From contig CAYHIR010000004.1 of the NCBI GenBank assembly GCA_964356815.1, forward strand, positions 842 through 64,841: a stretch of 64,000 nucleotides of DNA, in the 5' to 3' direction. The DNA comes from an uncultured Candidatus Saccharibacteria bacterium. GTDB taxonomy: Bacteria; Patescibacteriota; Minisyncoccia; Phycocordibacterales; DATGWK01. The notes under the pieces were generated by a model. The model saw only the letters and a list, made by a program, of their open reading frames with translations, was not told the DNA's origin and did not search any database. The position numbers were made by a program, and so were the translations under genes. Positions 6,803 to 59,203 of this stretch are shown here, one piece after another; positions within the stretch are counted from its first letter, which is position 1, and each line of letters opens with the position of its first letter.

Positions 6803-7001
6803 GGTGTGTATTCTATTTATATATAAATACTATTACTACTATTAGCTCTGTGTATATCTTGATAACCCCTGTAAAAGCCAATATTTAAGCCTTTTTTGCC
6901 GATTTTCTGTCCACAGGCATATGTGGATGAGGTGGATTTCGAAGGATAACTTTTTGTTTGGTTCATGTCGATTGGGTTTTTTGACCCGACTTTTCCGATA
7001 C

Positions 7002-7052
7002 TTATCCCCACTGTACCCTGTCTTATCCCCACTTATCCTAGACTTATCAACA
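7002..7052. promoter_or_regulatory. oriC-like cluster of four tandem DnaA-box 9-mers: TTATCCCCA x2, TTATCCTAG, TTATCAACA
   Basis: Same-orientation 9-mers start at 7002, 7023, 7033 and 7044 with ~10-11 bp phasing. They lie in the dnaN-dnaA intergenic region next to the AT-rich stretch 6810..6845. The 13-mer CATGTTGATAAGT also occurs inverted at 8578..8590 upstream of dnaA. Confidence 0.6.
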
Positions 7053-37469: not shown

Positions 37470-37476
37470 TTTAAAA

Positions 37477-38211: not shown

Positions 38212-38212
38212 A

Positions 38213-40296: not shown

Positions 40297-40341
40297 TCAA
40301 AATTAAAAGAAAGTTTATCCTCTTTATGCATTATTCTACTA

Positions 40342-40809: not shown

Positions 40810-40886
40810 GTCAAGTCTTCGGTCTCAAACTTGCCTTTTGGGCGTTAATTGATAACCTTTAACTGTATTATTAACAACAGACTTTA

Positions 40887-42074: not shown

Positions 42075-42101
42075 TGCAATTAATATTTTTCTGCTCGATT
42101 T

Positions 42102-43118: not shown

Positions 43119-43122
43119 TGAA

Positions 43123-44229: not shown

Positions 44230-44255
44230 GAGAATATAACATCTCAAAAAACTCG

Positions 44256-44993
44256 ATGCTAACCAAAGAAACCCTCCTCAAAACCCACAATCTTCACGTC
44301 CACTACGGTGGTGTACGAGCACTCGATGGTGCTTCAGTGGAAATAGATGAGGGTGAGATTGTGGCACTTATGGGGCCAAATGGTGCGGGCAAATCTACTG
44401 TTTTGAAGGCGATTTTTGGTATTGCGCCGGTTGCTTCGGGCGAGATTTTTTGGCATGGCAAGCCGATCAAGCCGGTGCCTCACGAGGTGGTCTCGCTAGG
44501 CATTTCTTTTGTGCCCCAAGGTCGCCGGGTTTTTAAGCATCTGACCGTCTACGAAAACATCGAAATCGGTGGCTGGGCGGTGCCGGAGCGACATGTGGTG
44601 AAAGAGCGGATTGCCGAAGTCCTCGACCTCTTCCCCGCTCTCAAGGCCAAGCTCAGCGCCAAGTCGGGCACTCTCTCTGGTGGCCAACAGCAAATGGTGG
44701 CTCTCGCCCGCGGCCTCATGACCGATCCCAAAGTTCTTCTTCTCGACGAGCCATCTCTCGGCCTCGCTCCAAAAATCGTCAAAGAAGTTTTCGAAAAAAT
44801 TCGAGAAATAAATGAACGACGCAAAACCGCAATTGTTGTCGTTGAGCACAATATTAAATCTCTTCTCGAATTCACCGACCGCGCTTATGTTTTAGACAAA
44901 GGAAAGGTTGTCGCTGTGGCTCCTGGTAAAGATTTTCTAACCAACGACACACTCGAAAAAGTTTTTATGGGGCGATTTGTGGGACAGGTTTAG
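44256..44993 (+). CDS. livF: Branched-chain amino acid ABC transporter ATP-binding protein
   Basis: Walker A GPNGAGKST. LSGGQQQMVALARGL signature. LLLDEP. Confidence 0.85.
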   Translation: MLTKETLLKTHNLHVHYGGVRALDGASVEIDEGEIVALMGPNGAGKSTVLKAIFGIAPVASGEIFWHGKPIKPVPHEVVSLGISFVPQGRRVFKHLTVYENIEIGGWAVPERHVVKERIAEVLDLFPALKAKLSAKSGTLSGGQQQMVALARGLMTDPKVLLLDEPSLGLAPKIVKEVFEKIREINERRKTAIVVVEHNIKSLLEFTDRAYVLDKGKVVAVAPGKDFLTNDTLEKVFMGRFVGQV

Positions 44994-45325: not shown

Positions 45326-46942
45326 TCACCCATCATCTTCCTCACCGCGAAACTGTAATGCCTCCAGAACATGCCGCTCTTTTATAAATTTCTCGTCGTC
45401 TAAATCAGCAATCGTGCGAGCCACGCGCCAAGTGCGATGAAAAGCGCGCATTGAAAGGCCGAGCTTGTCACCAAACTCAATTAGTTTTTCTTCGGCCACT
45501 TTTTCTATTGGTGCGAGCTTGGCCAAATCGCGGCCGGCGATGTAGGCGTTTATTTTTGATTGCCGGGCGAGCTGACGACCTCGAGCCGCAGCAATTCTTT
45601 CGCGTGCTTTCTGGGTTTCTGTTTTTGTGTCAGTATTTGTATTGACTTTTATTTTTCTAAAATCAATTTCTCCAACTTCAATGCGCAAATCTATGCGATC
45701 GAGAATCGGCCCAGAAATTTTTTTGGTATAACGCGATTTATCTTTTAATGTGCAGATACAATTTTTGTTTTCACTTTTTGCATAACCACACGGGCAAGGG
45801 TTCATTGCGGCGACAAGCATGAAGTATGCCGGAAAAACCACACTGCCTTTTATCCTCGAAATAGAAACTCGGTGCTCTTCAAGAGGCTCGCGCAAGGCTT
45901 CAATCACGCGTCTGTCAAACTCGGGAAATTCGTCAAGAAAAAGTATGCCGTGATGAGCGAGCGTCATTTCGCCAGGCTTTGGATGTGTGCCACCGCCAGC
46001 GATGGCAATGTATGAAGATGTATGATGTGGCGAACGAAATGGTCGGATGGTGAAAATCGGCGAGCGGTTTTGTCCGGTAAAATTTTCAGCATGCAAAAAG
46101 GCACCGGCCACAGAATGAATCGCTGTGACCTCTAAAGATTCTTCAAAAGAAAGTGGGGGTAGAATTGTTTTTAGTGTTTTGGCGAGCATCGTTTTGCCGG
46201 CCCCTGGCGGCCCAACAAATAAAATATTGTGACCTCCAGCCGCCGCAATTTCGAGCGCCCGCTTTGCACTCTCCTGCCCTTTTATTTCCTCCAAATATAT
46301 TTCGTCGCCCGAGTTTGTCGAGTCTGAATCCGTCGCTTCCAAAAGCGCGAGCGACTCTGCCGAAAGCGACGCTTCTTCTACAAGCCGCGCGCTATGTACT
46401 GGCCCACTTTTTTCGCGTGAAAATTCTTCATCTACATGCCCAATCACTTCCGCCAAGCTTTGTGCACCGAAAATTTTTACATCTTGAATAAGCGCCGCTT
46501 CGCGGGCGTTTTCTTTCGGCAGAAAAATTTCTCGGAAGCCCAGCCGCTTTGCTTCGGCGACGATTGCCAGCGCGCCACTTATTGGCCGCAAGCGGCCGTC
46601 GAGCGAAAGTTCGCCGAGAAAAAGTTTTTCACGCGCTGTGAAACGAATTTCTCCTGCCGCCAAAAGATAGCCAATAGCCATAGCCAAATCGAAAGCCGGT
46701 CCAGCTTTGCGAACATCAGCCGGGGCTAGTGAGATGACTACTTTTTGATTTTTATACTTCGGCGACCGAAACCCAGAATTTTTTATGGCTGCCGATATTC
46801 TGTCGCGAGCTTCCTCTATGGCTTTGTCTCCCAAACCAACAACCGAAAAAGCGTGTAGACCCCTTGAGAGATCTATTTCAATGTCGATTATTTGGCCAGC
46901 AAGAAAACGCGTTTGCCCGCTATGAACTTTGGCAAATCCCAT
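45326..46942 (-). CDS. comM: YifB/ComM-family Mg-chelatase-like AAA+ ATPase
   Basis: Characteristic N-terminal MGFAKVHS..GL. Walker A GPPGAGKTMLAK. C-terminal ComM domain. Confidence 0.9.
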   Translation of the reverse strand: MGFAKVHSGQTRFLAGQIIDIEIDLSRGLHAFSVVGLGDKAIEEARDRISAAIKNSGFRSPKYKNQKVVISLAPADVRKAGPAFDLAMAIGYLLAAGEIRFTAREKLFLGELSLDGRLRPISGALAIVAEAKRLGFREIFLPKENAREAALIQDVKIFGAQSLAEVIGHVDEEFSREKSGPVHSARLVEEASLSAESLALLEATDSDSTNSGDEIYLEEIKGQESAKRALEIAAAGGHNILFVGPPGAGKTMLAKTLKTILPPLSFEESLEVTAIHSVAGAFLHAENFTGQNRSPIFTIRPFRSPHHTSSYIAIAGGGTHPKPGEMTLAHHGILFLDEFPEFDRRVIEALREPLEEHRVSISRIKGSVVFPAYFMLVAAMNPCPCGYAKSENKNCICTLKDKSRYTKKISGPILDRIDLRIEVGEIDFRKIKVNTNTDTKTETQKARERIAAARGRQLARQSKINAYIAGRDLAKLAPIEKVAEEKLIEFGDKLGLSMRAFHRTWRVARTIADLDDEKFIKERHVLEALQFRGEEDDG

Positions 46943-47035
46943 ATTTATGAGTTCTGTGAAACACGGCTAATCTAATGCCGTATTGATGTAGCTAAACACA
47001 AGATAGATAAAGAAACCTTTAAGAAATGTTAAAGG

Positions 47036-47389
47036 TTACTCCATATGTTTCACACAGGTAGTGGCTGCTGGGTTGGCTTCGAGTCGCGCTTCTTCTATTT
47101 GTTCCCCTCCTGTCGTGCAGATACCGAACGAACCGTCTTCAATCCTTTTTAGAGCGTGTTTTATTTCGTTATATCTAATTTCTAGTTGTTTTAAAATGCC
47201 AGTGTTTGTTTCGTAGCCGTCTATCTTATCGGCCACTTCATCTTCGTCTAGTTTCCAAATGTCGTTGTCTGGCACGGCCTCCCAATCCGCAGGATTTTCG
47301 GGATTTTTTCGGCCCACAGTCATGAGCTCGCTTTCAACGAGCTTCAGCTCCTCAGTCAATTTTTCTTTGTATCGTTCTGTATTTTGCAC
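47036..47389 (-). CDS. DksA/TraR-family (short C4-type degenerate zinc finger) protein
   Basis: C-terminal GSFGICTTGGEQIEEARLEANPAATTCVKH. N-terminal coiled-coil. Confidence 0.5.
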   Translation of the reverse strand: MQNTERYKEKLTEELKLVESELMTVGRKNPENPADWEAVPDNDIWKLDEDEVADKIDGYETNTGILKQLEIRYNEIKHALKRIEDGSFGICTTGGEQIEEARLEANPAATTCVKHME

Positions 47390-47452
47390 GAGACTATTAT
47401 ACCAAATGTCTACTAAGTCACGCCAGTCTAGCCAAGGTTTGCGCGCCGTGGC

Positions 47453-48661
47453 TTAGCGCACCAGCCCTCTTGAGAGATATCGAGCGACGATTTCGCGGAA
47501 AGTTTCTTCGTGGGTGGCGATCACGAGGTGACCCGTGTCGATAAAAGAATAAAGGATTAAAATTTTGCCATTCGAATCTCGGAGTACGCGAGTGTCGCGA
47601 CTTTTTACGATCAGGTCTTCAAATTTGTCGCGAGGTACAGCGTTTGAAAATACGATTGCACCCGGTGAAGTTGTTTTAAAAATTTTGCCGATGTCGCCAA
47701 GAATTTTTGGTTCCCATGCAAGCATCGCACTGTACGCGCTGTCGAAAGTTTCGAGTTCAAAAATAACAAAAGGCTCATTTATAAAAGGATCAACTTTCGG
47801 CAAACTATAAAAACCGAGCAACCAATTTTCGCCAAGTGCGCGACCCAAAGCCGAAGGCGCACTTTTTGCTAGTGCTCCAAAAAATTCTTCTGGCGTTATC
47901 GGCTCAGCCTCGGCGAAAGTGTTTATCAGTCTTTCTTTTTTTAAATCGATCTGTGTGAGCGTGCCGTTGCCACCATTTTCTTGTGTGGCTTTTTGAACCA
48001 ATTCTTCCACAATTTCTTTAGATAAAGATGTGAGCACAACTTCTTTCGAATCATCAATAGAAATTATGGTTTGCATCTCTACCTTCGATGGTGCCACTTG
48101 TCGATTTTTAAAATAAAATGTCACAGCTAATGTGCCAAGTGCAGCGGCGATAAGAATGCCGCTCATTATAAAAAGCAAACTCCCTCTCGCTACTTTTTCA
48201 CTCGCACTTTGTTCGGCGGAGAAACCACCGCCTGCACCACCGCTTCGATTTTGTTCGAGCCGCCGTTTCTGCTCGGCAAGATTTATACTCATCGTCGTTT
48301 CGCCGGCGCGGATTGAGTCTGCCACATCGCGCTCGTATGTGCGAAGAGATTGGATTATTGAATTTGTGTTTTCTTTCGGAACCTCTTCCGCCAATGTTTC
48401 TTCTTGTGTAGTTTCCTCCGCTACTGTCGGTACGGTCGCCACCGTTTCCACTTTCGGTGTAAATTCTTCTGGTTCAGGTTTTGGAACTTCGCTAGTTTGA
48501 TTTTCAGAGGTGTCTATATCGCCCGCCACTTGCGGCATAATCTCTATTCCCACATTTGCCAAAGCGCCTTTGAATTCTTGCTCGCCCCCTTTCTGAAGCG
48601 CGCTACTTATTTTAGAAATTTTGTCGTCTTCAAGTGAAAGACCGTTTTGGTCGTCATTCAT
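47453..48661 (-). CDS. Hypothetical single-pass membrane protein
   Basis: Acidic N-terminal region, a central TM helix (LLFIMSGILIAAALGTLAVTFYF), and a C-terminal globular region. Confidence 0.45.
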   Translation of the reverse strand: MNDDQNGLSLEDDKISKISSALQKGGEQEFKGALANVGIEIMPQVAGDIDTSENQTSEVPKPEPEEFTPKVETVATVPTVAEETTQEETLAEEVPKENTNSIIQSLRTYERDVADSIRAGETTMSINLAEQKRRLEQNRSGGAGGGFSAEQSASEKVARGSLLFIMSGILIAAALGTLAVTFYFKNRQVAPSKVEMQTIISIDDSKEVVLTSLSKEIVEELVQKATQENGGNGTLTQIDLKKERLINTFAEAEPITPEEFFGALAKSAPSALGRALGENWLLGFYSLPKVDPFINEPFVIFELETFDSAYSAMLAWEPKILGDIGKIFKTTSPGAIVFSNAVPRDKFEDLIVKSRDTRVLRDSNGKILILYSFIDTGHLVIATHEETFREIVARYLSRGLVR

Positions 48662-48714
48662 GAAATTATTATATCACCGCCGCAGATAATTTTCGGCGCA
48701 CTATCGGCGCGAAT

Positions 48715-49263
48715 TTATTCTGCAGATTTATCTTCTCTCTTGTCGCCGCGATTTTTGCCGATCATGAGATAACGGCGTGGATTTGAGTCGAGGTCGATGA
48801 AGTCGTCGACAGCTTCGATGAGGCGTGAAGAAGAAGATTTTCCAAAAGCGATGGCTTCTACCTGGCAACCTTCATTTGTTTTTAAATATTCGACGAGAGG
48901 AATAAAATCGCCGTCACCAGAAACGATCACAACTGTGTCGAGTTTTGGTGCGAGCTTTACGGCATCGATAGCGAGGCCAACGTCCCAATCGGCTTTCTTT
49001 GCACCGCCGGAAAAAATTTGGAGATTTTTGGTTTTAGTTTCGATTCCAACTTTGCTCAAAGCTTCGAAAAAGTTTTTTTCATCGCCGCTTTCTGTGGTGA
49101 TGACATAAGCCACGGCGCGAATGAGTGAACGGCCAGCGACCGCATCTTTCACAATCTGACCAAAATTTACTTTAGAGTGATAAAGATTTTTGGCGCTGTG
49201 ATAAAGATTTTGCGTGTCAATGAAGATTCCAACTCGTTGATTTTTGTGTTTTACGACGGGCAT
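48715..49263 (-). CDS. NYN-domain (LabA-like) protein
   Basis: RVGIFIDTQNLY, then DTVVIVSGDGDFIPLVEYLK. Confidence 0.75.
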   Translation of the reverse strand: MPVVKHKNQRVGIFIDTQNLYHSAKNLYHSKVNFGQIVKDAVAGRSLIRAVAYVITTESGDEKNFFEALSKVGIETKTKNLQIFSGGAKKADWDVGLAIDAVKLAPKLDTVVIVSGDGDFIPLVEYLKTNEGCQVEAIAFGKSSSSRLIEAVDDFIDLDSNPRRYLMIGKNRGDKREDKSAE

Positions 49264-49331
49264 TTTTAAATGATTTAAATGAGCTATTTATTAAAATTTG
49301 GCGACTTTCCCGGTGCCGGCGACTCGTGGCC

Positions 49332-49604
49332 TTACCCCTTCTTTTTCAACTCCAGCTTCTTCACAAGTGCATTATAACGGCTAGCGCTCTTTTTCTGAAG
49401 ATATTTCATGTGCTTTTGACGATTGGCAACCATAGCTAAGAGGCCACGACGAGAATGTTTGTCGTTGGTGTTTTTCTTCAAATGACTAGCCAATTCTTCG
49501 ATTCGCTTGCTTATAATGGCAATTTGCACCTCCGGTGAGCCGGTATCGGTGTCGTGAATCTTGACTTCTTTGATAGTTCGTTGTTTTTTTGTCTTGGTTA
49601 ACAT
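49332..49604 (-). CDS. rpsO: 30S ribosomal protein S15
   Basis: GSPEVQIAIISKRIEELASHLKKNTNDKHSRRGLL is the S15 signature. Confidence 0.9.
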   Translation of the reverse strand: MLTKTKKQRTIKEVKIHDTDTGSPEVQIAIISKRIEELASHLKKNTNDKHSRRGLLAMVANRQKHMKYLQKKSASRYNALVKKLELKKKG

Positions 49605-49689
49605 TGCCGAGCAATCTTATCACAAAAGGTAAAAGTTGTAAACTGCGGCCAAAATTAAAGAGAAACCCCAGTGCCGATGGCTACTGGGG

Positions 49690-49884
49690 TCATTGGAGGC
49701 GTCTCACGAGGTGGAGCTTTTCGGCCAGTACCATTAGGATGGTGTATAGCAGGGCGAAGAGGAAAACAGCCAAAAAAGCTAGAGCAGCGATGTTGGAAAC
49801 GAGGAAGTTTTTGCCCGTGAGTGGCACATCGATGTCGCCTACCCGCTCGAAGGGTCTGGCGAGAGCTTTGCTGAGTCGGCTCAT
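49690..49884 (-). CDS. Small hydrophobic peptide (64 aa), second of a coupled pair
   Basis: Single TM helix. Start overlaps the stop of the upstream 50-aa ORF (ATGA). Confidence 0.3.
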   Translation of the reverse strand: MSRLSKALARPFERVGDIDVPLTGKNFLVSNIAALAFLAVFLFALLYTILMVLAEKLHLVRRLQ

Positions 49885-50033
49885 TTCTGAACTCCTTGTT
49901 TGTCACCCGCCCTTATTCCTGGCATAAGGGCATTCTTCACAAAAAAGGCCAGGCCAATCATGATGGACAGAAACAAGACAATTTCAAGCACCGATATTCT
50001 GGGGAACGACCAGCCGGTTCTATTTTTCGACAT
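49881..50033 (-). CDS. Small hydrophobic peptide (50 aa), first of a coupled pair
   Basis: Manual translation gives MSKNRTGWSFPRISVLEIVLFLSIMIGLAFFVKNALMPGIRAGDKQGVQK. Single TM helix; not in the ORF track. Confidence 0.25.
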   Translation of the reverse strand: MSKNRTGWSFPRISVLEIVLFLSIMIGLAFFVKNALMPGIRAGDKQGVQK

Positions 50034-50136
50034 ACAGCCAGTCCTTTCCTTGAGTCGTACGTTGCGGTGTGATTGGCGACATTCGCCTTTCTGTCTGCCA
50101 CAATTATCTAATTAAAAACAGCTCGTTGTCAATGGC

Positions 50137-51141
50137 GTGTCGCACAATGCTATAATTTTCGTAATGAAACTCTCGGAGCTCAAGCGTGAATTTTTGGAAT
50201 ATGTGGAAATTGAGCGTGGCCGTTCGCTCAAAACTGTCGAAAATTATGATCTCTATCTCACCCGCTTTCTTGAGTTTGCGAAAACGGAAAATCCTAAAGC
50301 TCTCACAGAAAATTTGCTCCGCGAATATCGCCTTTGGCTCAATCGACAGTCTGTGGGCGCACGCGGTGGTGCTGGCTCTAGCTCGGCTCGCGCGGCTGGT
50401 GGTGGCGCGCCCGCGACACTCAAAAAAAAGACGCAGAATTATTATCTCATCGCTCTGCGGGCGTTTCTAAAATATTTGGCAAAGCGTGGCGTTGTTTCCC
50501 TCTCGCCCGATAAAATAGAGCTCGCAAAAGTGCCAGAACGTTCGCTCGATCTCATTTCTCCGGAAGAATTAGAGCGACTTATGGCCGCGCCACAAGGCGA
50601 CGATTTGAAAACTTTGCGCGATCGCGCCATGCTCGAGCTCCTATTCTCTACCGGTCTGCGTGTCTCTGAGCTCTGCTCTCTCACTTGCGACATAAACTTA
50701 AAAAATGATGAGCTCTCGGTGCGCGGCAAGGGCGAAAAAATTCGCGTCGTTTTTATTTCTCCGTCTGCAAAAGAGGCTCTCAAAAAATATTTAGACAAAC
50801 GCACGGATATGGCCGAGCCGCTCTTTGTGCAATTTGGGAAAAATGGCGGCGACAAAGGCGGCGGTGAAAAATCTGCCGGAAAAAGTGGCGATGGCGCGCT
50901 CACTCCCCGTTCTGTGGAAAGAATCATTAAGCACTATGCGATAAAAGCCGGTATTACTAGAAAAGTCACGCCGCATGTTATTCGTCACAGCTTCGCCACA
51001 GACCTTCTCCGCAATGGCGCCGATCTTCGTTCTGTGCAAATGCTTCTCGGTCATGCAAATATCGGCACGACACAAATTTACACCCACATTACAGATAAAG
51101 AATTACGCGAGGTTCATAAAAAATTTCACAATAAAAATTGA
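50137..51141 (+). CDS. Tyrosine recombinase XerC/XerD family
   Basis: N-terminal SAM-like domain. C-terminal catalytic HVIRHSFAT..LLGHANIGTTQIYTH. Contains unusual Gly/Ala-rich insertions. Confidence 0.85.
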   Translation: MSHNAIIFVMKLSELKREFLEYVEIERGRSLKTVENYDLYLTRFLEFAKTENPKALTENLLREYRLWLNRQSVGARGGAGSSSARAAGGGAPATLKKKTQNYYLIALRAFLKYLAKRGVVSLSPDKIELAKVPERSLDLISPEELERLMAAPQGDDLKTLRDRAMLELLFSTGLRVSELCSLTCDINLKNDELSVRGKGEKIRVVFISPSAKEALKKYLDKRTDMAEPLFVQFGKNGGDKGGGEKSAGKSGDGALTPRSVERIIKHYAIKAGITRKVTPHVIRHSFATDLLRNGADLRSVQMLLGHANIGTTQIYTHITDKELREVHKKFHNKN

Positions 51142-51187
51142 AATGTGCTGATATGTTTAGCGCCATGTCCGCCGTGAAATTTTTGCA

Positions 51188-51230
51188 AGAAAAAAACCGG
51201 ATCGGCACTCAGAGAGCGCCAGATCCGGCT
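51188..51230 (-). terminator. Rho-independent terminator (GCCGGATC..GATCCGG hairpin + T7 on minus strand)
   Basis: Perfect 7-8 bp GC-rich stem followed by TTTTTTT on the minus strand. It is downstream of 51299..51874(-) and also between it and the xerC-family gene. Confidence 0.55.
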
Positions 51231-51298
51231 TCCGGGGGGCAAGATGAACTAAAGGAACTGACAGTATCCTAGCTCTAGGCTTAGGATTTGTCAACCGG

Positions 51299-51874
51299 TC
51301 AGCGGTCGCCAAGGTCACGTTTTGCCTGATCGTCGATGAACAGGTTGAGCTCTTCTCCCATTTTGGCGAGTAGCCTGATGTGCTCTGTCCCGCCATCTGA
51401 TAAGACAATCACTCCCTTTTCTCCGTACTCATCACCCCAGAAAGTTTCGATGCTTCCGGTCCAGCTCATAGCATCGAGCGTGCCGTCCTTCTCTTTGTGA
51501 ACCCAGAAGACTGTCTCGACATCGCCCGTCTTGTAGAAAAGGATGTCGTCGATCTTCACCCTCATCGCCAAGAGTCTTTTGCCGACATCGATCTTCCTCT
51601 GCTTCACCTGTTCGGTTTGTTGTTGCTGAAGACCCTCTAGCGTCACTCCTCCATCCCCTTCGAAGCCTTGGTGGAGTAGAGCGACGGCGAGAGCAACAGA
51701 AACGGCCACCGCTAACATCGTTATCGCCAATCCATCCCATGACCGTTTTTTGTGGACCGGCTGACCGAAGACTCCGTTGTTTGCGTAGGTATCGGTGCGG
51801 ACGCATTTGCAACGTCCGTCACAGCGACGACACCCATCGGTGATAGCGAAACTTCTTGACGAGCTCATACCCAC
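51299..51874 (-). CDS. Hypothetical membrane-anchored protein with N-terminal Cys cluster
   Basis: CRRCDGRCKC, then a TM helix LAITMLAVAVSVALAVALL. Locally GC-rich. Confidence 0.4.
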   Translation of the reverse strand: MGMSSSRSFAITDGCRRCDGRCKCVRTDTYANNGVFGQPVHKKRSWDGLAITMLAVAVSVALAVALLHQGFEGDGGVTLEGLQQQQTEQVKQRKIDVGKRLLAMRVKIDDILFYKTGDVETVFWVHKEKDGTLDAMSWTGSIETFWGDEYGEKGVIVLSDGGTEHIRLLAKMGEELNLFIDDQAKRDLGDR

Positions 51875-51984
51875 CTCCCATTCTCGTGTTTTCCCGTGTG
51901 CTTTTTTGGCTACTTACGTTCGCCAAATTTCACCAGACTTCGTCAATTCCAGCTTTAGGCTAACCTTTCTGTTACAATTTATCA

Positions 51985-52791
51985 ATGATTAAAATAATCT
52001 CCTGGAATGTAAACGGCATTCGCGCCATCCACAAAAAAGGCAAATGGGCGGAAATTTTAGCTGAAGACCCAGATATTCTTTGCCTCCAGGAAACCAAAGC
52101 CAATCCAGATCAACTCGGCGAAGACATTCTCCATCCGCCCGGCTACGAATCCTTTTTCGATTTTCCTAAAGTAAAAAAAGGTTATAGCGGCGTGGCTATT
52201 TATGTAAAAACGGGCAAAGTTGCCGCGACAAAAAAAATCCAGCCACAAAAAGTCGAATACATCATGGGCGTGCCGACTCTCGACGACGAGGGTCGTCTCA
52301 TCGCTGTCTATTTCGAAAATTTTTGCCTCATAAACGTCTATTTCCCTAATGGCGGTGGTGGCCCGGAGCGACTCAAATACAAGCTCGATTTTTATAAAGA
52401 ATTTCTAAAGTTTATCCAAAAAACCCGAAAAACCCAGCCAAATATAGTGTTTTGCGGCGACATAAACACGGCTCACAACGAAATCGACCTCGCTCGACCA
52501 AAAGAAAATTCAGAAAACACAGGCTTCTTGCCTATTGAGCGCGCGTGGCTCGATGAAGTTGTCGCCGCGGGCTATGTCGATACTTTTCGTTACTTCTTCC
52601 CCACTACAGCGAGTGCTTACACATATTGGGATATGAAAACTTTTGCTCGCGAAAGAAATGTTGGTTGGCGCATCGATTATTTTTTTGTTTCAAAAGAATT
52701 TTTGCCACACATCAAATCCACAAAAATTCACGAAGATTTTTTTGGCTCCGACCACTGCCCGATTTCTATCGAGGTAAATTTAGACAAATAA
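51985..52791 (+). CDS. xth: Exodeoxyribonuclease III (AP endonuclease)
   Basis: IISWNVNGIRA..CLQETK N-terminus. C-terminal SDHCPI. Confidence 0.9.
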   Translation: MIKIISWNVNGIRAIHKKGKWAEILAEDPDILCLQETKANPDQLGEDILHPPGYESFFDFPKVKKGYSGVAIYVKTGKVAATKKIQPQKVEYIMGVPTLDDEGRLIAVYFENFCLINVYFPNGGGGPERLKYKLDFYKEFLKFIQKTRKTQPNIVFCGDINTAHNEIDLARPKENSENTGFLPIERAWLDEVVAAGYVDTFRYFFPTTASAYTYWDMKTFARERNVGWRIDYFFVSKEFLPHIKSTKIHEDFFGSDHCPISIEVNLDK

Positions 52792-52823
52792 AGTCGTCAG
52801 CTTTTTCCGCGCTGCCGGTGCTT

Positions 52824-53038
52824 TATAAAGGACAAAGTTGACATAAAAAGACAAGTTATCCCCAACCGCGCAAGCAAAATGTCTTTTATTATTTTGCACC
52901 GGTGTTAGTATAAAGGACAGAGGTTCGGTTGGATGTCCCAGACTCTATCTCGGGCGGAATTCCGAACATTGGTTCTTTCGAAGAGTGGTGCACACTCACG
53001 AAAGGTTTTTCTGGTAAAGGACATAATTACGGGGTATG
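52824..53038. repeat. TATAAAGGACA motif copies in the xth-cca intergenic region (52824, 52909; variant GTAAAGGACAT 53024)
   Basis: Exact 11-mer TATAAAGGACA occurs twice plus one variant within a 215 bp stretch of a 500 bp non-coding gap. Confidence 0.45.
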
Positions 53039-53290
53039 TATATCTCTCAACCATATCCTTTATAAAAGAAGATATCGCTTCGATTATCTCTCTCACTGGA
53101 TGACGCTTTCACAACCGCCTGAGCCATCGCCTTTGGATTCGGGCGGTTTCTTTTTGCCAAAATTTTACTCGTTTTTTCTAAGGTTTCGTTAGTTGGATTT
53201 TGAGTCACTCTCGGAGGCCGACGGGCCGAGAGTGAGTGAAAATTTTAGCAAAAAATTTATCGCGGTGACGAAAAATGCAACTAACGAAAC

Positions 53291-54853
53291 CTATTCCACC
53301 CAGTGCCTTTTCCTTATTTCCCCCACAGCCTTATCCTCCTCCTCTTTCTTTTTAGCTTTTCCAGCGTCGCCAATTTTTTGGAGTTCGGTGTCGCTTAGGC
53401 CAGCGAATTCACCGGCGAGTTTTTCGAGTTTTTCGGCCTCGTTCAACTTTGGATCCTCGAGCACTTCCTCTAAGAGAGCGTGCAAAATATAGCCGATTCT
53501 CGGTCCTGGCTTCTCGTCGGCCACCTCGATGATTTTCGCACCGTTTATCTTGAGCATGGCGACAGAAATCGGGTCGCGCATCGCTTCGTCTACCATAGAG
53601 TGGTATTTGCGGAGGCGATATGGGCTCTCTTTCGGCCGGCCGGTGCCAATACGGTCGCAAATGCGTACATTCATAAGGTCCCAGACATTTTCAGGGCCAA
53701 CATTAGCCACCAAACGGCGCACGGCCGAAAGCGTGATCTTCTCTGTATCCGAGAAAAACATATGCCAACGCACCAGTTTCACTACCCTATCAATCAAATC
53801 ATTCGGATATTTGAGGTTTTTTAGCACCTGTTCGGCCACGCGTGCGCCCACCACATCGTGTCCGTGAAACGTCCAGTCTTTCTTTTCGTCAGACCAACGG
53901 CGCGTCTCAGGCTTGGAAATATCATGAAGCAGAGCCGCCAAACGAATATGCAAAGGCCAGCCTTTCTTGGCTGAGTGCTCCAGTGTCTTTAAGAGATGTG
54001 TCCATACATCAAATGAATGAGCCTGATTTTGTTTCACATCAATCGCGGCCGGTAGCTCAGGAATTATAAAGGACAAAATGCCGAGCTCTTGGCATAGCTC
54101 AATCGCCTCTTTTGGGTGTGGCGACATAATAATCCGCGAAAATTCCTCACGGACACGCTCTTTGGCAATGTGTTTGAGCAGACCAGCATGTTCTTTCATC
54201 GCCGCTTGGGTCGCCGGGTCTATAGAGAAGCCAAGCTCAGCATGAATACGTACGGCACGCAAAATACGAAGCGCGTCCTCACTAAATCGCTCTGTCGGCT
54301 CCCCCACTGCCCGCACAATCTTCTTGTCTAAATCTTTCAAACCATCAAAAAGGTCAACAATCTGGCCATTTTCTACATCGTAAGCCACAGCATTGAATGT
54401 GAAATCACGTCTTTTAAGATCGTCCTCAATTTTTTTGCTAAAGGACACTTTATCCGGCCGACGTTTGTCCGAATAACCAGATTCTACTCTGTACGGTGTG
54501 ACCTCAATGACTTTTAGAGACTCATCTATCGGCGCGGCCGTTACTTCATCGCCATCACCTGCGTCTTTCGCGGCCGCTCCTGTCTCCTCATTCACCACAC
54601 CCACCGTGCCGTAATCGTTTTCGTAAAAAGTCTTTGGGAATATGGCCACGATTTGCTCTGGAGTCGCATTGGTGGTGACATCCCAATCTTTTGGCGTTCT
54701 ACCAATAAACAGGTCGCGCACGCAGCCACCGACGATATAGGCCTCGTAGCCATGCTTTTTGAGCGTACTTGTGACTTGCGCAACTTCTTTTGGGATGGAG
54801 AAAGTGTCAGGACTGATTTTTGCGGTCGATTTCATTATCACAAATCTTATCAC
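53291..54853 (-). CDS. cca: CCA-adding tRNA nucleotidyltransferase with HD domain
   Basis: GGCVRDLFIG..DWDVTT polymerase-beta head. C-terminal HD domain (HDISK). Confidence 0.85.
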   Translation of the reverse strand: MIRFVIMKSTAKISPDTFSIPKEVAQVTSTLKKHGYEAYIVGGCVRDLFIGRTPKDWDVTTNATPEQIVAIFPKTFYENDYGTVGVVNEETGAAAKDAGDGDEVTAAPIDESLKVIEVTPYRVESGYSDKRRPDKVSFSKKIEDDLKRRDFTFNAVAYDVENGQIVDLFDGLKDLDKKIVRAVGEPTERFSEDALRILRAVRIHAELGFSIDPATQAAMKEHAGLLKHIAKERVREEFSRIIMSPHPKEAIELCQELGILSFIIPELPAAIDVKQNQAHSFDVWTHLLKTLEHSAKKGWPLHIRLAALLHDISKPETRRWSDEKKDWTFHGHDVVGARVAEQVLKNLKYPNDLIDRVVKLVRWHMFFSDTEKITLSAVRRLVANVGPENVWDLMNVRICDRIGTGRPKESPYRLRKYHSMVDEAMRDPISVAMLKINGAKIIEVADEKPGPRIGYILHALLEEVLEDPKLNEAEKLEKLAGEFAGLSDTELQKIGDAGKAKKKEEEDKAVGEIRKRHWVE

Positions 54854-55106: not shown

Positions 55107-55180
55107 CACTAAAGGACCATAGGGGTCAAAAGACAGTAAAAAGGCCAAAACTGTGGATAAGTCTGGGGACATGTGTATAA
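55098..55180. repeat. Further TAAAGGAC motif copies (CTAAAGGACCA 55100; TATAAAGGACAT 55166) directly after tRNA-Gly
   Basis: The same core recurs in the xth-cca gap and twice inside cca. Confidence 0.4.
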
Positions 55181-55265
55181 AGGACATTTTCGTAAAAGTC
55201 AGTGATTTTTTGTCCTATATCTATTAAATGGCTATAAACAAAGGTTTTTGAGAGTTTTCTCTGTG

Positions 55266-55385
55266 TTTCACGTGAAAAACGGTGCGTTTGAGACTGTTTT
55301 GGGGCAATTTTAGGCATATTTAAACGAAAAAGTGTTTCTTAAGAAACGTTTCGACCCTTCTCCTGGGGGGGTATTTCACGTGAAA
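55266..55385. repeat. Palindromic GTTTC-N4-GAAAC sites: TTTCACGTGAAA at 55266 and 55374; GTTTCTTAAGAAAC at 55333
   Basis: Three perfect 12-14 bp palindromes clustered within 180 bp upstream of the YraN-like gene start. Confidence 0.55.
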
Positions 55386-55445
55386 CGCCATCTTTAACCA
55401 TTCTTAAAGTTTTCTTTAGGGTGTTTATGCTAATTTTCTGTAATT

Positions 55446-56006
55446 ATGACCACAAAACAAATTTCAAAGAAGGTAAACGCTAGAAAATGGGCAATTATAA
55501 GGAATAAAAAGAAAAAGGAGGCATCTGGCGGATCTGAGAATCAAAAGCTAGGATTTGTAGGGGAACAGGTAACTAAGAAACATCTTTTGTCTAAAGGATT
55601 GGAGTTCGTTTCTTCCAATTTTCGCCGAAAATATGGCGAAATTGATCTAATAATGAAGGTTCCTGCTGGAGCTGGTGTGGCCGGTAGGGGCAGAGAAAGA
55701 CTGATGTTTTTCGAGGTCAAAACTGTTTCACGTGAAAGGTTCGATGGTTCTTTGGTGGGGAATCGGCCAGACATTTCACGTGAAACATCAAAAGGCCGCA
55801 CTTTTGGGGAGGGTTTTAATGATTATCGCCCCGAAGACAACGTTAGTGTCTCAAAAATTAGAAAGACTCGGAGGATTATAAAAATATGGCTGGAGGAGAA
55901 CAAAATGTCTGAATCGGCCGACTGGAGCTTTAATGTAGCGCTCGTGTATCTATCTAAGTCTGAAAAGAAGTTTTATATAAAGATTTTGTGGGATGTCATC
56001 CTCTGA
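55446..56006 (+). CDS. YraN-family (UPF0102) endonuclease-like protein with internal insertion
   Basis: LSKGLEFVSSNFRRKYGEIDLIM..LMFFEVKT matches the YraN core (GEIDLI..FVEVKTR). Two TTTCACGTGAAA palindromes lie inside the ORF. Confidence 0.5.
   Translation: MTTKQISKKVNARKWAIIRNKKKKEASGGSENQKLGFVGEQVTKKHLLSKGLEFVSSNFRRKYGEIDLIMKVPAGAGVAGRGRERLMFFEVKTVSRERFDGSLVGNRPDISRETSKGRTFGEGFNDYRPEDNVSVSKIRKTRRIIKIWLEENKMSESADWSFNVALVYLSKSEKKFYIKILWDVIL
55726..55785. repeat. Two more TTTCACGTGAAA palindromes (55726, 55774) inside the YraN-like coding sequence
   Basis: The identical 12-mer recurs 48 nt apart and flanks a ~16-codon segment that looks like an insertion. Confidence 0.5.
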
Positions 56007-56084: not shown

Positions 56085-56156
56085 CGGGGCGTGGTGTAAC
56101 GGTAACATGCTTGACTTGGGATCAAGTGACTCCGGGTTCGAATCCCGGCGCCCCGA
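56085..56156 (+). tRNA. tRNA-Pro (anticodon TGG)
   Basis: Acceptor CGGGGCG/CGCCCCG, U8. Anticodon stem CTTGA/TCAAG with loop CTTGGGA. T-arm CCGGG-TTCGAAT-CCCGG. Confidence 0.85.
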
Positions 56157-56299
56157 AATCATATAGACCAGGGATTATTAAAACAAGGTTTTCCTTGACA
56201 TGGGCTGAAGGCTGTGATATTTTCTTTGAGTTATTGTATCAAAATGATAACCTCGCTACGGAGGGTCGTAGCAACAGTTCTTTCAAAAAGGAGGAAATC

Positions 56300-57064
56300 T
56301 TGGCTAGAATAAAATCAAAACAGACCACTCTCGCACCATTCTTGGTTGAGAGTGGGCAACGCGGCGGAAACATTTTTCGAGTCGTGTCTGTGGCTGATGG
56401 CGTAACTCGCGAGCAGATCGAAACGCTGCTTACGAAGTTACCGATCCGTTTTAAGATTCACAGGTTCCCGTCGTGTTATCAAGAGCACAGTATCAACGAG
56501 CCGCTCGAGGTTCATGTTGAAGGAAGTATCGTCTACATCTATCCAACTAAAGATCGGATCATCGCTTGCACGACGCTCGATTCGTGGGGATCTGCTGATG
56601 TGGTGAGTCAGATGCATGTCGACAACATGATGGACACGCTTAGTCCTGGCCGAGGACAGCTTCGAACGTGCATCCACTTCGACCCGAAAGTTCTCGGCAT
56701 TGAAGGTTGGCCAAACACCTCGGAGGCCACGGCTGAGCTTGAGGTCGATATCCATGTCTATTCGATTGGAAAGACGTTGGAGCCTCAGATGCGTCCGCCC
56801 CAACTCGACAAATTCCAGCTACGCGATCTTCTTCAACTGATCGCTGGAAAAGAGCGGTCAATCTCAGTCCGGCAATTTGATCGCTGGAGGGATCTGATCA
56901 TGTATTCCGTCGCACACATGCGATTTGTCTACGAAGGTATGCCGGGAGATGATCCTACCCGTGACTACTATGGAATGGTGTGGAGAGAGTTTGATGCGGC
57001 CACTGACAGCGAAGGTGTGGTTCGGGCACTGGATTCTCTTGTCAGTGCGATTAACTATCAGTGA
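56300..57064 (+). CDS. Hypothetical protein (TTG start with AAGGAGG RBS); the track ORF start at 56111 overlaps tRNA-Pro
   Basis: RBS AAGGAGG lies 5 nt before an in-frame TTG. GC content is higher than the flanks. No domain recognised. Confidence 0.4.
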   Translation: MARIKSKQTTLAPFLVESGQRGGNIFRVVSVADGVTREQIETLLTKLPIRFKIHRFPSCYQEHSINEPLEVHVEGSIVYIYPTKDRIIACTTLDSWGSADVVSQMHVDNMMDTLSPGRGQLRTCIHFDPKVLGIEGWPNTSEATAELEVDIHVYSIGKTLEPQMRPPQLDKFQLRDLLQLIAGKERSISVRQFDRWRDLIMYSVAHMRFVYEGMPGDDPTRDYYGMVWREFDAATDSEGVVRALDSLVSAINYQ

Positions 57065-57571: not shown

Positions 57572-57655
57572 CACTTTAGTTACAGAGATTGAGAGACTTT
57601 AAGTTGTTAGGTGGTTTTAATAAAGTATTTATTTAAGCTAGTATTGGAGGGATTT

Positions 57656-58507
57656 ATGATAAAGAAAGAATTCACAGATGTAGAGGATATTCTGGAGAAA
57701 CGCCTCAATGAGCAGGTTCAATCTGGCAAATTAGAAGGCGAACAATGGTTCAGAAATCCTCTCGGATGGCTTCTTGTGTGTTTCAATAATCCTCTGAATT
57801 TCAAGAATCCAAACGGAGAATTAGTGGTGCTTCAAAACAATCAGAATGAGATATCAAAATATATAAAGGGCTTAAACCAAATACACTACGGTGTTGGTGT
57901 AGGAGAAACAGAATTAGAAATTGTAAGATTTGAGTTAGAGCAATCGAAGGTGGTTTCATTGGAAGGGATTGATATAAACAAAACCTTTATCGAGCTTTTT
58001 GGAGAGAACCTTAAAGACAAAGAGTTTGAATTCGGGAAAAATTCTATCCAAGCAAAGCTCATCCAGGATTTATTCCAAAATTACCAGCCCTCATTTAACG
58101 GCAATACGTTGCATGTGTGCCTTGGGGGAACATTAGGAAACTTTGATGATTCAAGTAGCGAGCTCTGGAGTATTTTTCAAAAGAATTCAAAATCGGGAGA
58201 TTGCCTACTGGTTGGAGTAAAGATGGATAAATATGTAGATATAGATTTCAAGAAATATCAGACCAATTATTATTATCCAGCGTTTGTTTTGTCTCATATT
58301 AAGAACGTGGATGCATCACTTATCAAATGGCGAAAAGATGAGAATAATTATTTTAGGATGAGCTATGACGGTATTGAGGTTTTCAGAACAAGACGATTCA
58401 ATAAAGATAACCTTATAAAAGAAGCGGGTACTCATGGTTTCAAATTCGCAGATTCTTGGACATGCGAGTATGAACATTCATTAGTGGTGCTCTTTAAGAG
58501 AAACTAG
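57656..58507 (+). CDS. Hypothetical protein (AT-rich island)
   Basis: GGAGG RBS lies 6 nt before the ATG. Low GC. No recognisable domain. Confidence 0.45.
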   Translation: MIKKEFTDVEDILEKRLNEQVQSGKLEGEQWFRNPLGWLLVCFNNPLNFKNPNGELVVLQNNQNEISKYIKGLNQIHYGVGVGETELEIVRFELEQSKVVSLEGIDINKTFIELFGENLKDKEFEFGKNSIQAKLIQDLFQNYQPSFNGNTLHVCLGGTLGNFDDSSSELWSIFQKNSKSGDCLLVGVKMDKYVDIDFKKYQTNYYYPAFVLSHIKNVDASLIKWRKDENNYFRMSYDGIEVFRTRRFNKDNLIKEAGTHGFKFADSWTCEYEHSLVVLFKRN

Positions 58508-58534
58508 TTAGACCGAGGTGTTTCAGTTCGAGCT

Positions 58535-59203
58535 GTGAGCTATAATTTTCTCATGAAACATTTTGCCGAAGGTTTCCAATACAAAGTTTACGACATTGGG
58601 AACAACCGAGTTTTGAAGAAAACACAGTCGTATCTCTACACCTTCTTCAAAGTATTTGTTCTGGTAAGAGAGCGAGAAAACGCTTCTATTTTTAAAGCTT
58701 TCGTTGTCGCAGTAAATTCTAATAAAGAAAATAAAAGAGCCTTGCAAAAAATGAAAGAGAAAATGAAAGTAATTCCCCTAGATTTATTTGCTAACCCTGA
58801 ATTTATTGGAGACACCCTGAACTTTACTCAAGATAAAGTTACGCCAGTTGAGGATTATTTAATTCAAAGCAGTTTGGAAAATAATAAAAAAATTGTTGAT
58901 GGCTATATTGAATTGCAAAAATTATTTTGGTCATACGGTATTCACGATTCGGTGTATAAATTTCAACCAAATTATGGAGTTAATTCTCAGGGGAAAGTCG
59001 TTTGCATAGATTTCGGAGAATTTATATTTACAAAACTGGAGGCATTAAAGAATCTAGAAAAAGGGAAGTGGTTTTTCAGATTGTCTTACAAGAAATGGGC
59101 TGAGAGTGAAATAAAAACTTACTATACGGACGCAATGAAAAGAACCATGGTTAAAGATGTATTGCAGAAGTATTGGAATACAAAAATTCCTAACTCTGTT
59201 TAA
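58535..59203 (+). CDS. Hypothetical protein (AT-rich island)
   Basis: 222 aa. No recognisable domain. Confidence 0.45.
   Translation: MSYNFLMKHFAEGFQYKVYDIGNNRVLKKTQSYLYTFFKVFVLVRERENASIFKAFVVAVNSNKENKRALQKMKEKMKVIPLDLFANPEFIGDTLNFTQDKVTPVEDYLIQSSLENNKKIVDGYIELQKLFWSYGIHDSVYKFQPNYGVNSQGKVVCIDFGEFIFTKLEALKNLEKGKWFFRLSYKKWAESEIKTYYTDAMKRTMVKDVLQKYWNTKIPNSV

What the first reader, a model, noticed from the sequence alone, without database searches (positions are those of the whole stretch)
55266..55785. Five copies of a GTTTC-N4-GAAAC palindrome (TTTCACGTGAAA x4, GTTTCTTAAGAAAC x1) upstream of and inside the YraN-like gene
The perfect 12-bp palindrome TTTCACGTGAAA occurs at 55266, 55374, 55726 and 55774. 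The related 14-bp palindrome is at 55333. Three copies lie in the 180 bp before the ORF, like an operator array for a dimeric regulator. Two lie inside the ORF, 48 nt apart, bracketing an apparent ~16-codon insertion that repeats the peptide SRE(R/T). The cluster is either a regulator binding-site array or a small palindromic mobile repeat that has invaded the coding sequence.
Basis: seen in the sequence. Interest (0 to 1): 0.55.

Follow-up and report, generated by a model that had tools for sequence, protein, structure and literature searches.

The report
Chromosome centromere (parS) built into yraN
The repeated palindrome is the standard bacterial centromere sequence (parS, the ParB docking site), here four copies around and inside a small nuclease-like gene about 48 kb from the replication origin of a groundwater CPR bacterium; the same layout is kept across its relatives strongly enough to fix part of the protein's sequence.

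Summary
TTTCACGTGAAA occurs four times in 520 bp and nowhere else in 64 kb (0 expected). Extended to 16 bp, each copy matches the chromosomal parS consensus TGTTTCACGTGAAACA with 1-2 mismatches, all in the outer two positions. The best explanation is a centromere: an array of ParB-binding sites.

It lies about 48 kb from oriC, which I located in the dnaA-dnaN spacer (AT-rich tract, six DnaA-trios, tandem DnaA boxes).

In 160 related Patescibacteria loci the same yraN-like gene carries parS-like sites just upstream and at two in-frame positions. Density is about 20 times that of the flanks. The conserved peptide VSRE uses the parS codons GTT-TCA-CGT-GAA far above expectation (29/42 against 1.3%). 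Other invariant residues of the same gene use mixed codons. So the DNA motif dictates the peptide, which sits in a disordered loop.

A conserved triple DnaA box lies about 100 bp upstream of the array.

This is not a mobile repeat, not an ordinary operator, and not the origin itself.

Main gap: no parB gene was found in the DNA available, so ParB binding is inferred.

Verdict: a new member of a known kind, with an unusual conserved gene-embedded layout. Moderate interest.

The parts
55264..55279 (.). parS-1, TGTTTCACGTGAAAAA (1 mismatch to TGTTTCACGTGAAACA). Non-coding, 182 bp upstream of the yraN-like start codon.
   Evidence: Conserved with the identical sequence in L093.
55372..55387 (.). 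parS-2, TATTTCACGTGAAACG (2 mismatches). Non-coding, 74 bp upstream of the start codon.
   Evidence: An upstream non-coding parS is present in most related loci.
55724..55739 (.). parS-3, TGTTTCACGTGAAAGG (2 mismatches). Inside the ORF and in frame; codons 94-98 = V S R E R, directly after the catalytic E-V-K motif.
   Evidence: Codon test.
55772..55787 (.). parS-4, CATTTCACGTGAAACA (2 mismatches). Inside the ORF and in frame; codons 110-114 = I S R E T, in the disordered loop.
   Evidence: (an in-frame second motif in 46/79 loci against 1/79 out of frame).
55334..55347 (.). GTTTCTTAAGAAAC palindrome. It has parS-like outer arms but a TTAA centre. Status unresolved; probably not a high-affinity ParB site.
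   Evidence: Conserved in window, L093 and L094 only. A TTAA centre was seen once among about 240 GTTTC-N4-GAAAC near the gene in other loci.
55152..55186 (+). Conserved block TGTGGATAAGTCTGGGGACATGTGTATAAAGGACA: three head-to-tail DnaA-box-like 9-mers. Box 1 is an exact TTATCCACA on the minus strand. It flanks the parS array.
   Evidence: Recognisable in 146/161 related loci. DnaA boxes reach 3-6 per kb here against about 0.3 per kb background.
55446..56006 (+). yraN-like (UPF0102, PD-(D/E)xK nuclease fold) gene that hosts parS-3 and parS-4.
   Evidence: Pfam PF02021 E 4.5e-13. PDB 3FOV matched by sequence profile and by fold. Loop 97-125 has pLDDT below 50.
6816..7052 (+). Context: oriC in the dnaA-dnaN spacer. 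AT-rich tract, DnaA-trios TAC TAT TAC TAC TAT TAG (6828-6845), a 3-bp spacer, then tandem boxes TGTGTATAT / TCTTGATAA and further boxes to 7052. It defines the roughly 48 kb origin-to-centromere distance.
   Evidence: Definition of the module from PMC8287927.

Best explanation
The four palindromes are parS sites, the centromere-like loading sites for the chromosome-partition protein ParB. They form the origin-proximal centromere of this Patescibacteria (CPR, Paceibacteria-type) chromosome.

Inferred mechanism, from the established ParABS pathway: a ParB dimer recognises each 16-bp palindrome through its helix-turn-helix. It binds CTP, closes into a clamp and slides onto flanking DNA. Repeated loading at four closely spaced sites builds a partition complex over this roughly 0.5-1 kb region. 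That complex is segregated by ParA and/or loads SMC.

Shown here:
- sequence identity to the parS consensus;
- restriction to one cluster about 48 kb from oriC;
- conservation of the cluster at this gene across a large clade;
- selection acting on the DNA motif rather than on the encoded peptide.

Inferred, not shown: that a ParB is encoded in these genomes and binds these sites.

The array has been fixed around and inside the yraN-like gene. Two sites are tolerated in frame because they fall at the start of, and within, a disordered surface loop. A conserved triple DnaA box about 100 bp upstream suggests that DnaA also binds at this centromere.
For: (1) All four sites equal TGTTTCACGTGAAACA with 1, 2, 2 and 2 mismatches, confined to positions 1-2 and 15-16. 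There is no other match within 3 mismatches in 64 kb (0.46 expected). That 16-mer is the published chromosomal parS consensus (PMC7022226 Table 1; 14 papers).

(2) Origin-proximal, as parS sites generally are (ori domain). oriC with a canonical DnaA-trio/DnaA-box module is at 6816-7052, next to dnaA and dnaN.

(3) Conservation in 80 genome loci: sites within 2 mismatches run at 2.1 per kb within -300..+500 of the gene against 0.107 per kb in the flanks. 64 of 80 loci have at least 1 and 38 have at least 2. This is replicated in 80 independent metagenome loci with 10-kb flanks: 1.1-1.5 per kb at the gene and about 0 beyond 5 kb. The median is 3 sites (within 3 mismatches) per 1.5 kb against 0.009 expected.

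(4) DNA-level selection. At the conserved VSRE, V is GTT in 76/80, S is TCA in 45/69 and never AGY, R is CGT in 46/51, and E is GAA in 66/69. The exact 12-mer occurs in 29/42 against 1.3% expected (p about 1e-45). Invariant residues elsewhere in the same gene use mixed codons; for example the R of RPEDN uses all six. The third residue varies R/C/H/Y = CGT/TGT/CAT/TAT, single transitions at the central CpG, so the DNA is constrained more than the amino acid.

(5) The 81 non-coding upstream sites recover the full 16-bp consensus, including T1, G2, C15 and A16. 28 of them have 0-1 mismatch.

(6) The encoded segment is a low-confidence, length-variable loop (pLDDT below 50 for residues 97-125).
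Against: No parB or parA gene was found in the window, in the next 9 kb of the source contig, or by motif search and tblastn in 1.35 Mb of related loci.

Whether these genomes encode ParB elsewhere could not be tested, and the held literature says nothing on ParB or parS in CPR.

None of the four window sites is a perfect 16-mer.

No binding data exist.

Loci within each comparative set are phylogenetically related, so the p-values overstate independence.
Confidence: 0.8

Rival explanations
1. Operator array for a dedicated, non-ParB dimeric transcription factor that controls the yraN-like gene.
For: Two to three palindromes lie between a conserved upstream block and the start codon. The position of the upstream site relative to the gene start is stereotyped across loci.
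Against: The sites match a specific, well-characterised 16-bp consensus. Half of them lie inside the ORF, and in relatives some lie downstream of it. No regulator gene is adjacent in the window or in syntenic L095. The motif is absent upstream of any other gene in 64 kb, so there is no regulon.
Confidence: 0.06
2. The locus is (part of) a replication origin. The DnaA boxes plus flanking parS would mark the real or a second oriC, and the palindromes would be origin-associated elements.
For: A triple DnaA box is conserved in 146/161 loci. There is a local GC dip and a GC-skew sign change in 56/57 short loci. Co-oriented and head-on genes differ in GC3 skew.
Against: With 10-kb flanks the left side shows no mirror polarity (p 0.81; per-locus mean -0.011 against +0.105 on the right). 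There is no DnaA-trio periodicity and no distinct AT-rich unwinding block. The only canonical box-trio-AT module in the window is in the dnaA-dnaN spacer. The right-flank asymmetry may come from highly expressed minus-strand genes (HU, RNase Y, ClpP, Tig, NusA).
Confidence: 0.07
3. The palindromes are by-products of protein coding. The YraN-like family needs the peptide VSRE/ISRET, and the DNA similarity to parS is coincidental.
For: V94 and S95 are invariant, and R96 and E97 nearly so, in the protein alignment.
Against: Codon choice is locked to the parS codons while other invariant residues use mixed codons. The third residue is chemically promiscuous (R/C/H/Y) but always one transition from CGT. 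Non-coding copies with the full 16-bp consensus flank the gene in most loci. The peptide lies in a disordered loop. The solved UPF0102 homologue 3FOV has 'EVKA--RG' there.
Confidence: 0.03
4. A small palindromic mobile repeat (REP/MITE-like) has invaded the intergenic region and the gene.
For: There are several near-identical short palindromes in a small region.
Against: The repeat unit is only 14-17 nt with unrelated flanks. There are no copies elsewhere in 73 kb. The copies are in frame and at orthologous codons in proteins about 30% identical. Sites are essentially absent from about 250 kb of distal flanks in other genomes.
Confidence: 0.01
5. The sites are bound by a ParB paralogue with another role (Noc-like nucleoid occlusion or KorB-like silencing) rather than by the partition ParB.
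For: ParB-family paralogues recognise related palindromes. No partition genes are linked to the array.
Against: The centre is CACGTG, not the CCCGGG of the Noc site, and there are no matches to the Noc-binding consensus within 3 mismatches. A single origin-proximal cluster is the centromere pattern, whereas Noc sites are dispersed (established knowledge).
Confidence: 0.03

Closest known systems
Chromosomal parS / ParB (Spo0J) centromeres of Bacillus, Caulobacter, Hyphomonas and others
   Same: The same 16-bp palindrome consensus TGTTTCACGTGAAACA. A few to many copies, clustered in the origin-proximal domain.
   Different: Four sites are packed into 520 bp, and up to 13 in 1.5 kb in relatives. 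The array is anchored to one particular gene across a whole clade. The par genes are not linked to it, whereas par operons usually lie close to oriC and parS.
parS inside the B. subtilis spo0J coding sequence (recalled from memory; not verified with the tools)
   Same: A functional parS can sit inside an ORF.
   Different: Here there are two in-frame sites at conserved codons of an unrelated gene. They are maintained across orthologues of about 30% identity and visibly fix codon choice and peptide sequence.
Caulobacter crescentus centromere with DnaA boxes (Mera et al. 2014, as summarised in PMC6399470)
   Same: DnaA boxes sit within or next to the parS centromere, separate from the origin. 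Here a conserved triple DnaA box lies about 100 bp from parS-1 and 48 kb from oriC.
   Different: DnaA binding is untested here. The arrangement (three head-to-tail boxes with a fixed orientation relative to the gene) is stereotyped across 146/161 loci. The lineage is unrelated.
Noc-binding sites (NBS, tATTTCCCGGGAAATa) of Firmicutes
   Same: Related palindrome with the same outer arms, bound by a ParB paralogue.
   Different: The central bases differ (CACGTG here). There are no NBS matches in the window. NBS are dispersed over the chromosome arms, not clustered (established knowledge).
DnaA-box clusters outside oriC (E. coli datA and DARS; B. subtilis DBCs). From established knowledge; not tested here.
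   Same: A small cluster of DnaA boxes away from oriC and in the origin-proximal region.
   Different: Those are not known to be coupled to parS. Function here is unknown.

Membership tests
Chromosomal parS (ParB-binding centromere) | 16-bp inverted repeat matching tGTTNCACGTGAAACa | tested here: met
   1, 2, 2 and 2 mismatches, all in positions 1-2 or 15-16. Consensus from PMC7022226.
Chromosomal parS (ParB-binding centromere) | [quoted passage not shown] | tested here: met
   About 48 kb from the DnaA-trio/DnaA-box oriC at 6816-7052. Genome size is unknown; if it is in the 0.6-1.2 Mb range I recall for CPR genomes, 48 kb would be about 4-8%.
Chromosomal parS (ParB-binding centromere) | Few, clustered copies rather than genome-wide dispersal | tested here: met
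   No other site within 3 mismatches in 64 kb, none in the 9-kb extension, and about 0 beyond 5 kb in 80 loci. The whole genome was not available.
Chromosomal parS (ParB-binding centromere) | Sequence maintained by selection on the DNA itself | tested here: met
   Codon-locking at VSRE against mixed codons at control residues. The full consensus is recovered in non-coding copies.
Chromosomal parS (ParB-binding centromere) | Cognate ParB (and usually ParA) encoded in the genome | tested here: inconclusive
   None in the window, the extension or 1.35 Mb of related loci.
Chromosomal parS (ParB-binding centromere) | ParB binds, and spreads or slides from, the sites | not testable with these tools
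   Needs ChIP-seq, EMSA or BLI.
Noc-binding site | tATTTCCCGGGAAATa palindrome | tested here: not met
   0 matches within 3 mismatches.
REP/MITE-type mobile palindromic repeat | Many dispersed copies with a longer shared unit, mostly intergenic | tested here: not met
   Unit of 14-17 nt with unrelated flanks. A single cluster. Orthologous in-frame positions.
Transcription-factor operator array | Sites confined to the promoter region, with a linked regulator or regulon | tested here: not met
   Sites lie inside and downstream of the ORF. No adjacent regulator. No other occurrences in the window.
oriC basal unwinding system (applies to the adjacent DnaA-box block) | DnaA box(es), a spacer of 16 bp or less, at least 3 DnaA-trios (NAN) and an AT-rich region | tested here: not met
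   No trio periodicity or AT block at 55.1-55.3 kb. The module is present only at 6822-6865. Definition.
UPF0102 / YraN (host gene) | Pfam PF02021 match, PD-(D/E)xK-type fold with G-E-I-D and E-V-K motifs | tested here: met
   E 4.5e-13. Motifs invariant. 3FOV matched by profile (3.9e-6) and by fold (TM 0.79 on the target).

The most novel reading that the evidence does not exclude
Paceibacteria-type CPR bacteria carry a fixed composite module: a triple DnaA box, then a dense parS array, written around and into the yraN-like gene. In this reading the replication initiator and the partition protein act on the same roughly 0.6-kb stretch of DNA about 50 kb from oriC. DnaA would license or time segregation there (as proposed for Caulobacter), or the site would titrate or reactivate DnaA. 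The centromere has shaped the sequence and length of a loop in the host protein. This would be the first defined centromere for the CPR radiation, and a case of a cis-acting chromosome element dictating a conserved peptide motif across a large clade.
Probability: 0.3. Interest if true: 0.6.

Novelty: new member of a known kind. Interest (0 to 1): 0.42.

Why it matters
It assigns a concrete function to what looked like an odd palindrome cluster.

I found no description of a centromere for Patescibacteria/CPR in the held literature. These organisms are almost entirely uncultured, and their cell-cycle machinery is largely inferred from gene lists.

The locus is a compact, testable unit of about 0.6 kb holding three DnaA boxes and four parS sites. 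It could be cloned and probed with recombinant DnaA and ParB.

It is also a clean example of a cis-acting DNA element overriding codon choice and fixing a peptide motif ('VSRE', 'ISRET') in a protein. That matters for anyone interpreting conserved motifs in UPF0102 proteins or building family profiles from CPR sequences.

For genome annotation, the yraN-linked array together with the dnaA-dnaN trio module gives two landmarks for orienting CPR assemblies.

Tried and rejected
(1) oriC at this locus. This was prompted by the conserved DnaA boxes and an apparent GC-skew switch. I rejected it after 10-kb flanks showed no mirror polarity on the left, after no trios or AT block were found, and after a canonical origin module turned up in the dnaA-dnaN spacer.

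(2) A promoter reading of the TGTGGATAA...TATAAA block. The consensus scan found no sigma-70-like site there, and 35 bp of near-invariance across distant relatives is more than promoters show. It is left open as a possible DnaA-regulated promoter.

(3) An RNA gene in the 338-bp spacer. Rfam at E up to 1 found only the flanking tRNAs.

(4) Locating ParB/ParA. I tried Pfam scans of window ORFs, walking the source contig, a syntenic 20-kb locus, GERRxRA motif scans and tblastn with Spo0J/Soj. All were negative, and none can speak for the whole genome.

(5) Literature on parS, ParB or origins in CPR. Nothing relevant.

(6) Mobile element and Noc site. Both negative.

(7) Half-parS enrichment. The overall count is at chance. 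A local excess at 46.6-54.0 kb was picked out after seeing the data and is not used as evidence.

Full report
WHAT IS THERE

The 12-mer TTTCACGTGAAA occurs at 55266, 55374, 55726 and 55774 and nowhere else in the 64-kb window. No shuffle of the window produced a single copy.

It is the only GTTTC-N4-GAAAC in the window, but 16% of shuffles give one, so alone it is not significant.

Extended to 16 bp the four copies read:
- TGTTTCACGTGAAAAA
- TATTTCACGTGAAACG
- TGTTTCACGTGAAAGG
- CATTTCACGTGAAACA

These are 1, 2, 2 and 2 mismatches from TGTTTCACGTGAAACA, all in the outermost two positions. They are the only matches within 3 mismatches in the window. That 16-mer is the published consensus of the chromosomal parS site, the target of the ParB/Spo0J partition protein (PMC7022226 Table 1).

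Two copies lie in the 338-bp spacer between tRNA-Gly(GCC) and a 186-aa ORF (55446-56006). Two lie inside that ORF, 48 nt apart and in the same frame. The ORF is a UPF0102/YraN-family protein:
- Pfam E 4.5e-13;
- profile match to PDB 3FOV;
- fold match with TM 0.79 on the target.

GENOMIC SETTING

The window is identical to an overlapping 94.5-kb contig from a groundwater metagenome (Hainich aquifer, well H41). Its relatives are all Patescibacteria/CPR MAGs of the Paceibacteria type.

dnaA (7081-8520, minus strand), dnaN (5702-6802, minus strand) and yidC are in the window.

The dnaA-dnaN spacer contains a textbook origin unwinding module as defined by Pelliciari et al. (PMC8287927). It has an AT-rich tract, six in-phase trios TAC TAT TAC TAC TAT TAG, a 3-bp spacer, tandem boxes TGTGTATAT/TCTTGATAA, and further boxes up to 7052. 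It is the only such module in the window.

The palindrome cluster therefore lies about 48 kb from oriC. That is inside the origin-proximal domain where parS sites are normally found.

No parA or parB is encoded in the window, in the next 9 kb of the source contig, or around dnaA.

COMPARATIVE EVIDENCE

Homologues of the protein share 'EVK(T/S)VSRE', and many share a second '(V/I)SRET' a few residues later.

In 80 genome loci, 16-mers within 2 mismatches of parS occur at 2.1 per kb from -300 to +500 of the gene, against 0.107 per kb in the 3-kb flanks. 64, 38 and 18 loci have at least 1, 2 and 3 sites.

An independent set of 80 metagenome loci with flanks of up to 10 kb gives 1.1-1.5 per kb at the gene, a shoulder of 0.3-0.4 per kb at -2.5 to -1 kb, and essentially none elsewhere.

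Over 127 loci with complete context the median is 3 sites (within 3 mismatches) per 1.5 kb against 0.009 expected. The maximum is 13.

The layout is stereotyped: DnaA boxes, then about 100-150 bp, then an upstream parS, the start codon, and in-frame parS about 161 and 185 nt into the tblastn match, which begins near residue 30 of the protein. In some lineages there are more sites downstream.

IS THE DNA OR THE PEPTIDE UNDER SELECTION?

At the conserved VSRE the codons are:
- V: GTT in 76/80;
- S: TCA in 45/69, with no AGY at all;
- R: CGT in 46/51;
- E: GAA in 66/69.

The exact 12-mer GTTTCACGTGAA encodes 29 of 42 VSRE motifs, against 1.3% expected from local codon usage.

Invariant residues elsewhere in the same gene use mixed synonymous codons. 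G of GEID uses all four. V of EVK is mostly GTA. R of RPEDN uses all six.

The third residue varies among R, C, H and Y (CGT, TGT, CAT, TAT). These are single transitions at the central CpG, so the nucleotide pattern is kept while the amino acid is not.

A second in-frame match within 3 mismatches of GTTTCACGTGAAACA is present in 46/79 loci, against 1/79 out of frame. The modal offset is 8 codons (24 bp), compared with 16 codons in the window.

The 81 non-coding upstream sites recover the whole 16-bp consensus, and 28 of them have 0-1 mismatch. These sites were selected at 3 mismatches or fewer, so only the distribution of mismatches across positions is informative.

An AlphaFold model places E-V-K at the end of strand 85-95. 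Residues 97-125 form an unstructured loop with pLDDT below 50. So parS-3 (codons 94-98) sits at the strand-to-loop junction and parS-4 (codons 110-114) inside the loop. The loop length varies from 8 to 49 aa in the family, with a mode of 17 and a value of 34 in the window.

INTERPRETATION

The array is best explained as the chromosome's centromere. ParB dimers load at the four sites and form a partition complex.

The shown steps are motif identity, clustering, origin proximity, clade-wide conservation and DNA-level selection. The inferred step is ParB itself.

I could not show that these genomes encode ParB. Motif scans and tblastn over 1.35 Mb of fetched CPR DNA were negative. This only shows that par genes are not linked to the array. 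The held literature says nothing on ParB or parS in CPR.

Because the consensus is the canonical one down to the outer bases, a canonical ParB helix-turn-helix is the economical inference. I put 0.8 on this explanation.

THE NEIGHBOURING DnaA BOXES

A 35-bp block at 55152-55186 reads TGTGGATAAGTCTGGGGACATGTGTATAAAGGACA. It is invariant in relatives down to 45% protein identity and recognisable in 146/161 loci as three head-to-tail DnaA boxes. It is preceded by AAAAC and A-tracts phased about 10 bp apart, and followed by GGACA/TGTCC repeats. DnaA-box density there is 3-6 per kb against about 0.3 per kb.

I tested whether this is the origin.
- Short flanks suggested a skew switch.
- 10-kb flanks showed polarity only on the right.
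- There are no trios and no AT-rich block.
- The window's canonical origin is at dnaA-dnaN.

So this is a separate DnaA-box cluster beside the centromere. The closest precedent is DnaA binding to boxes within the Caulobacter parS region (Mera et al. 2014, as summarised in PMC6399470). Its role here is unknown. Candidates are segregation licensing, DnaA titration or reactivation, and DnaA control of the yraN promoter.

ALTERNATIVES

- A dedicated operator array: sites lie inside and downstream of the ORF, there is no linked regulator, and there is no regulon.
- A mobile palindrome: the unit is 14-17 nt with unrelated flanks, it forms one cluster, and the copies sit at orthologous in-frame positions.
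- A Noc-type site: no match.
- Pure coding constraint: excluded by the codon controls and the non-coding copies.

The 14-bp GTTTCTTAAGAAAC is conserved only in the three closest relatives. Its TTAA centre is almost unseen elsewhere. I leave it unassigned.

CAVEATS

- Loci within each set are related by descent and share synteny, so the statistics overstate independence.
- Genes in the loci were called as longest non-overlapping ORFs.
- The genome size of the source organism is unknown.

VERDICT

This is a real, non-random feature whose identity is a known kind of element, the parS centromere, in a lineage where I found none described. Three features are unusual: it is conserved inside one gene, it has a visible imprint on the protein, and it is coupled to a DnaA-box cluster. 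It is of moderate interest, and directly testable in vitro.

Noticed in passing
window 6816-7052: Canonical oriC in the dnaA-dnaN spacer: AT-rich tract, six DnaA-trios (TAC TAT TAC TAC TAT TAG), a 3-bp spacer, tandem DnaA boxes and at least five further box-like sites. It is the only such module in the window.
   Followed up: yes
window 55152-55186; 146/161 related loci: Conserved triple head-to-tail DnaA box with an AAAAC prefix, about 10-bp phased A-tracts to its left and GGACA/TGTCC repeats to its right, always in the same orientation relative to the yraN-like gene. Function unknown.
   Followed up: partly
loci L001-L080 and L097-L176, relative to the yraN-like gene: Step in strand compositional asymmetry at the site (GC3 polarity about +0.1 on the right, about 0 on the left). 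It may reflect highly expressed minus-strand genes on the right (HU, RNase Y, ClpP, trigger factor, NusA) rather than replication.
   Followed up: partly
window 55142-55154 and 55714-55726: The 13-mer AGG(C/T)CAAAACTGT precedes both DnaA box 1 and the intragenic parS-3. This may be coincidence.
   Followed up: no
window 46630-54045: Six of the eight isolated half-parS heptamers (GTTTCAC) in the window lie in the 7.4 kb just upstream of the cluster. The total count is at chance and the local excess was picked out after seeing the data.
   Followed up: partly
L059, L052, L073 (and others): Some relatives carry far denser arrays, with up to 13 parS-like sites in 1.5 kb spanning upstream, intragenic and downstream positions. 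Many loci also have a secondary group of sites 1-2.5 kb upstream.
   Followed up: partly
window 11314-18592: Type IV secretion-like block (T4SS pilin-like, TraG P-loop ATPase, PrgI) with an AbiEii toxin at 16693-17406. It may be an integrated conjugative element close to oriC.
   Followed up: no
window 29781-44993: Two Liv-type branched-chain amino-acid ABC transporter sets with five periplasmic binding-protein genes. This is unusually many for a reduced genome.
   Followed up: no
window 4436-5428, 40342-40809, 48715-49263, 24576-25202: Toxin- or defence-like genes scattered through the window: RhuM/Fic, a MazF-like toxin and two NYN-domain proteins.
   Followed up: no
window 50137-51141: XerC/D-like tyrosine recombinase with a Gly/Ala/Ser-rich low-complexity insert (…GARGGAGSSSARAAGGGAP…). 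It is conserved in synteny with L095.
   Followed up: no
window 56111-57064 and 57611-59203 compared with L095: Relative to the syntenic locus L095, the window has extra genes between yraN and HU: a 317-aa ORF with no Pfam match that overlaps tRNA-Pro, a Methyltransf_33 protein and a 222-aa ORF. This suggests insertions next to the centromere.
   Followed up: no
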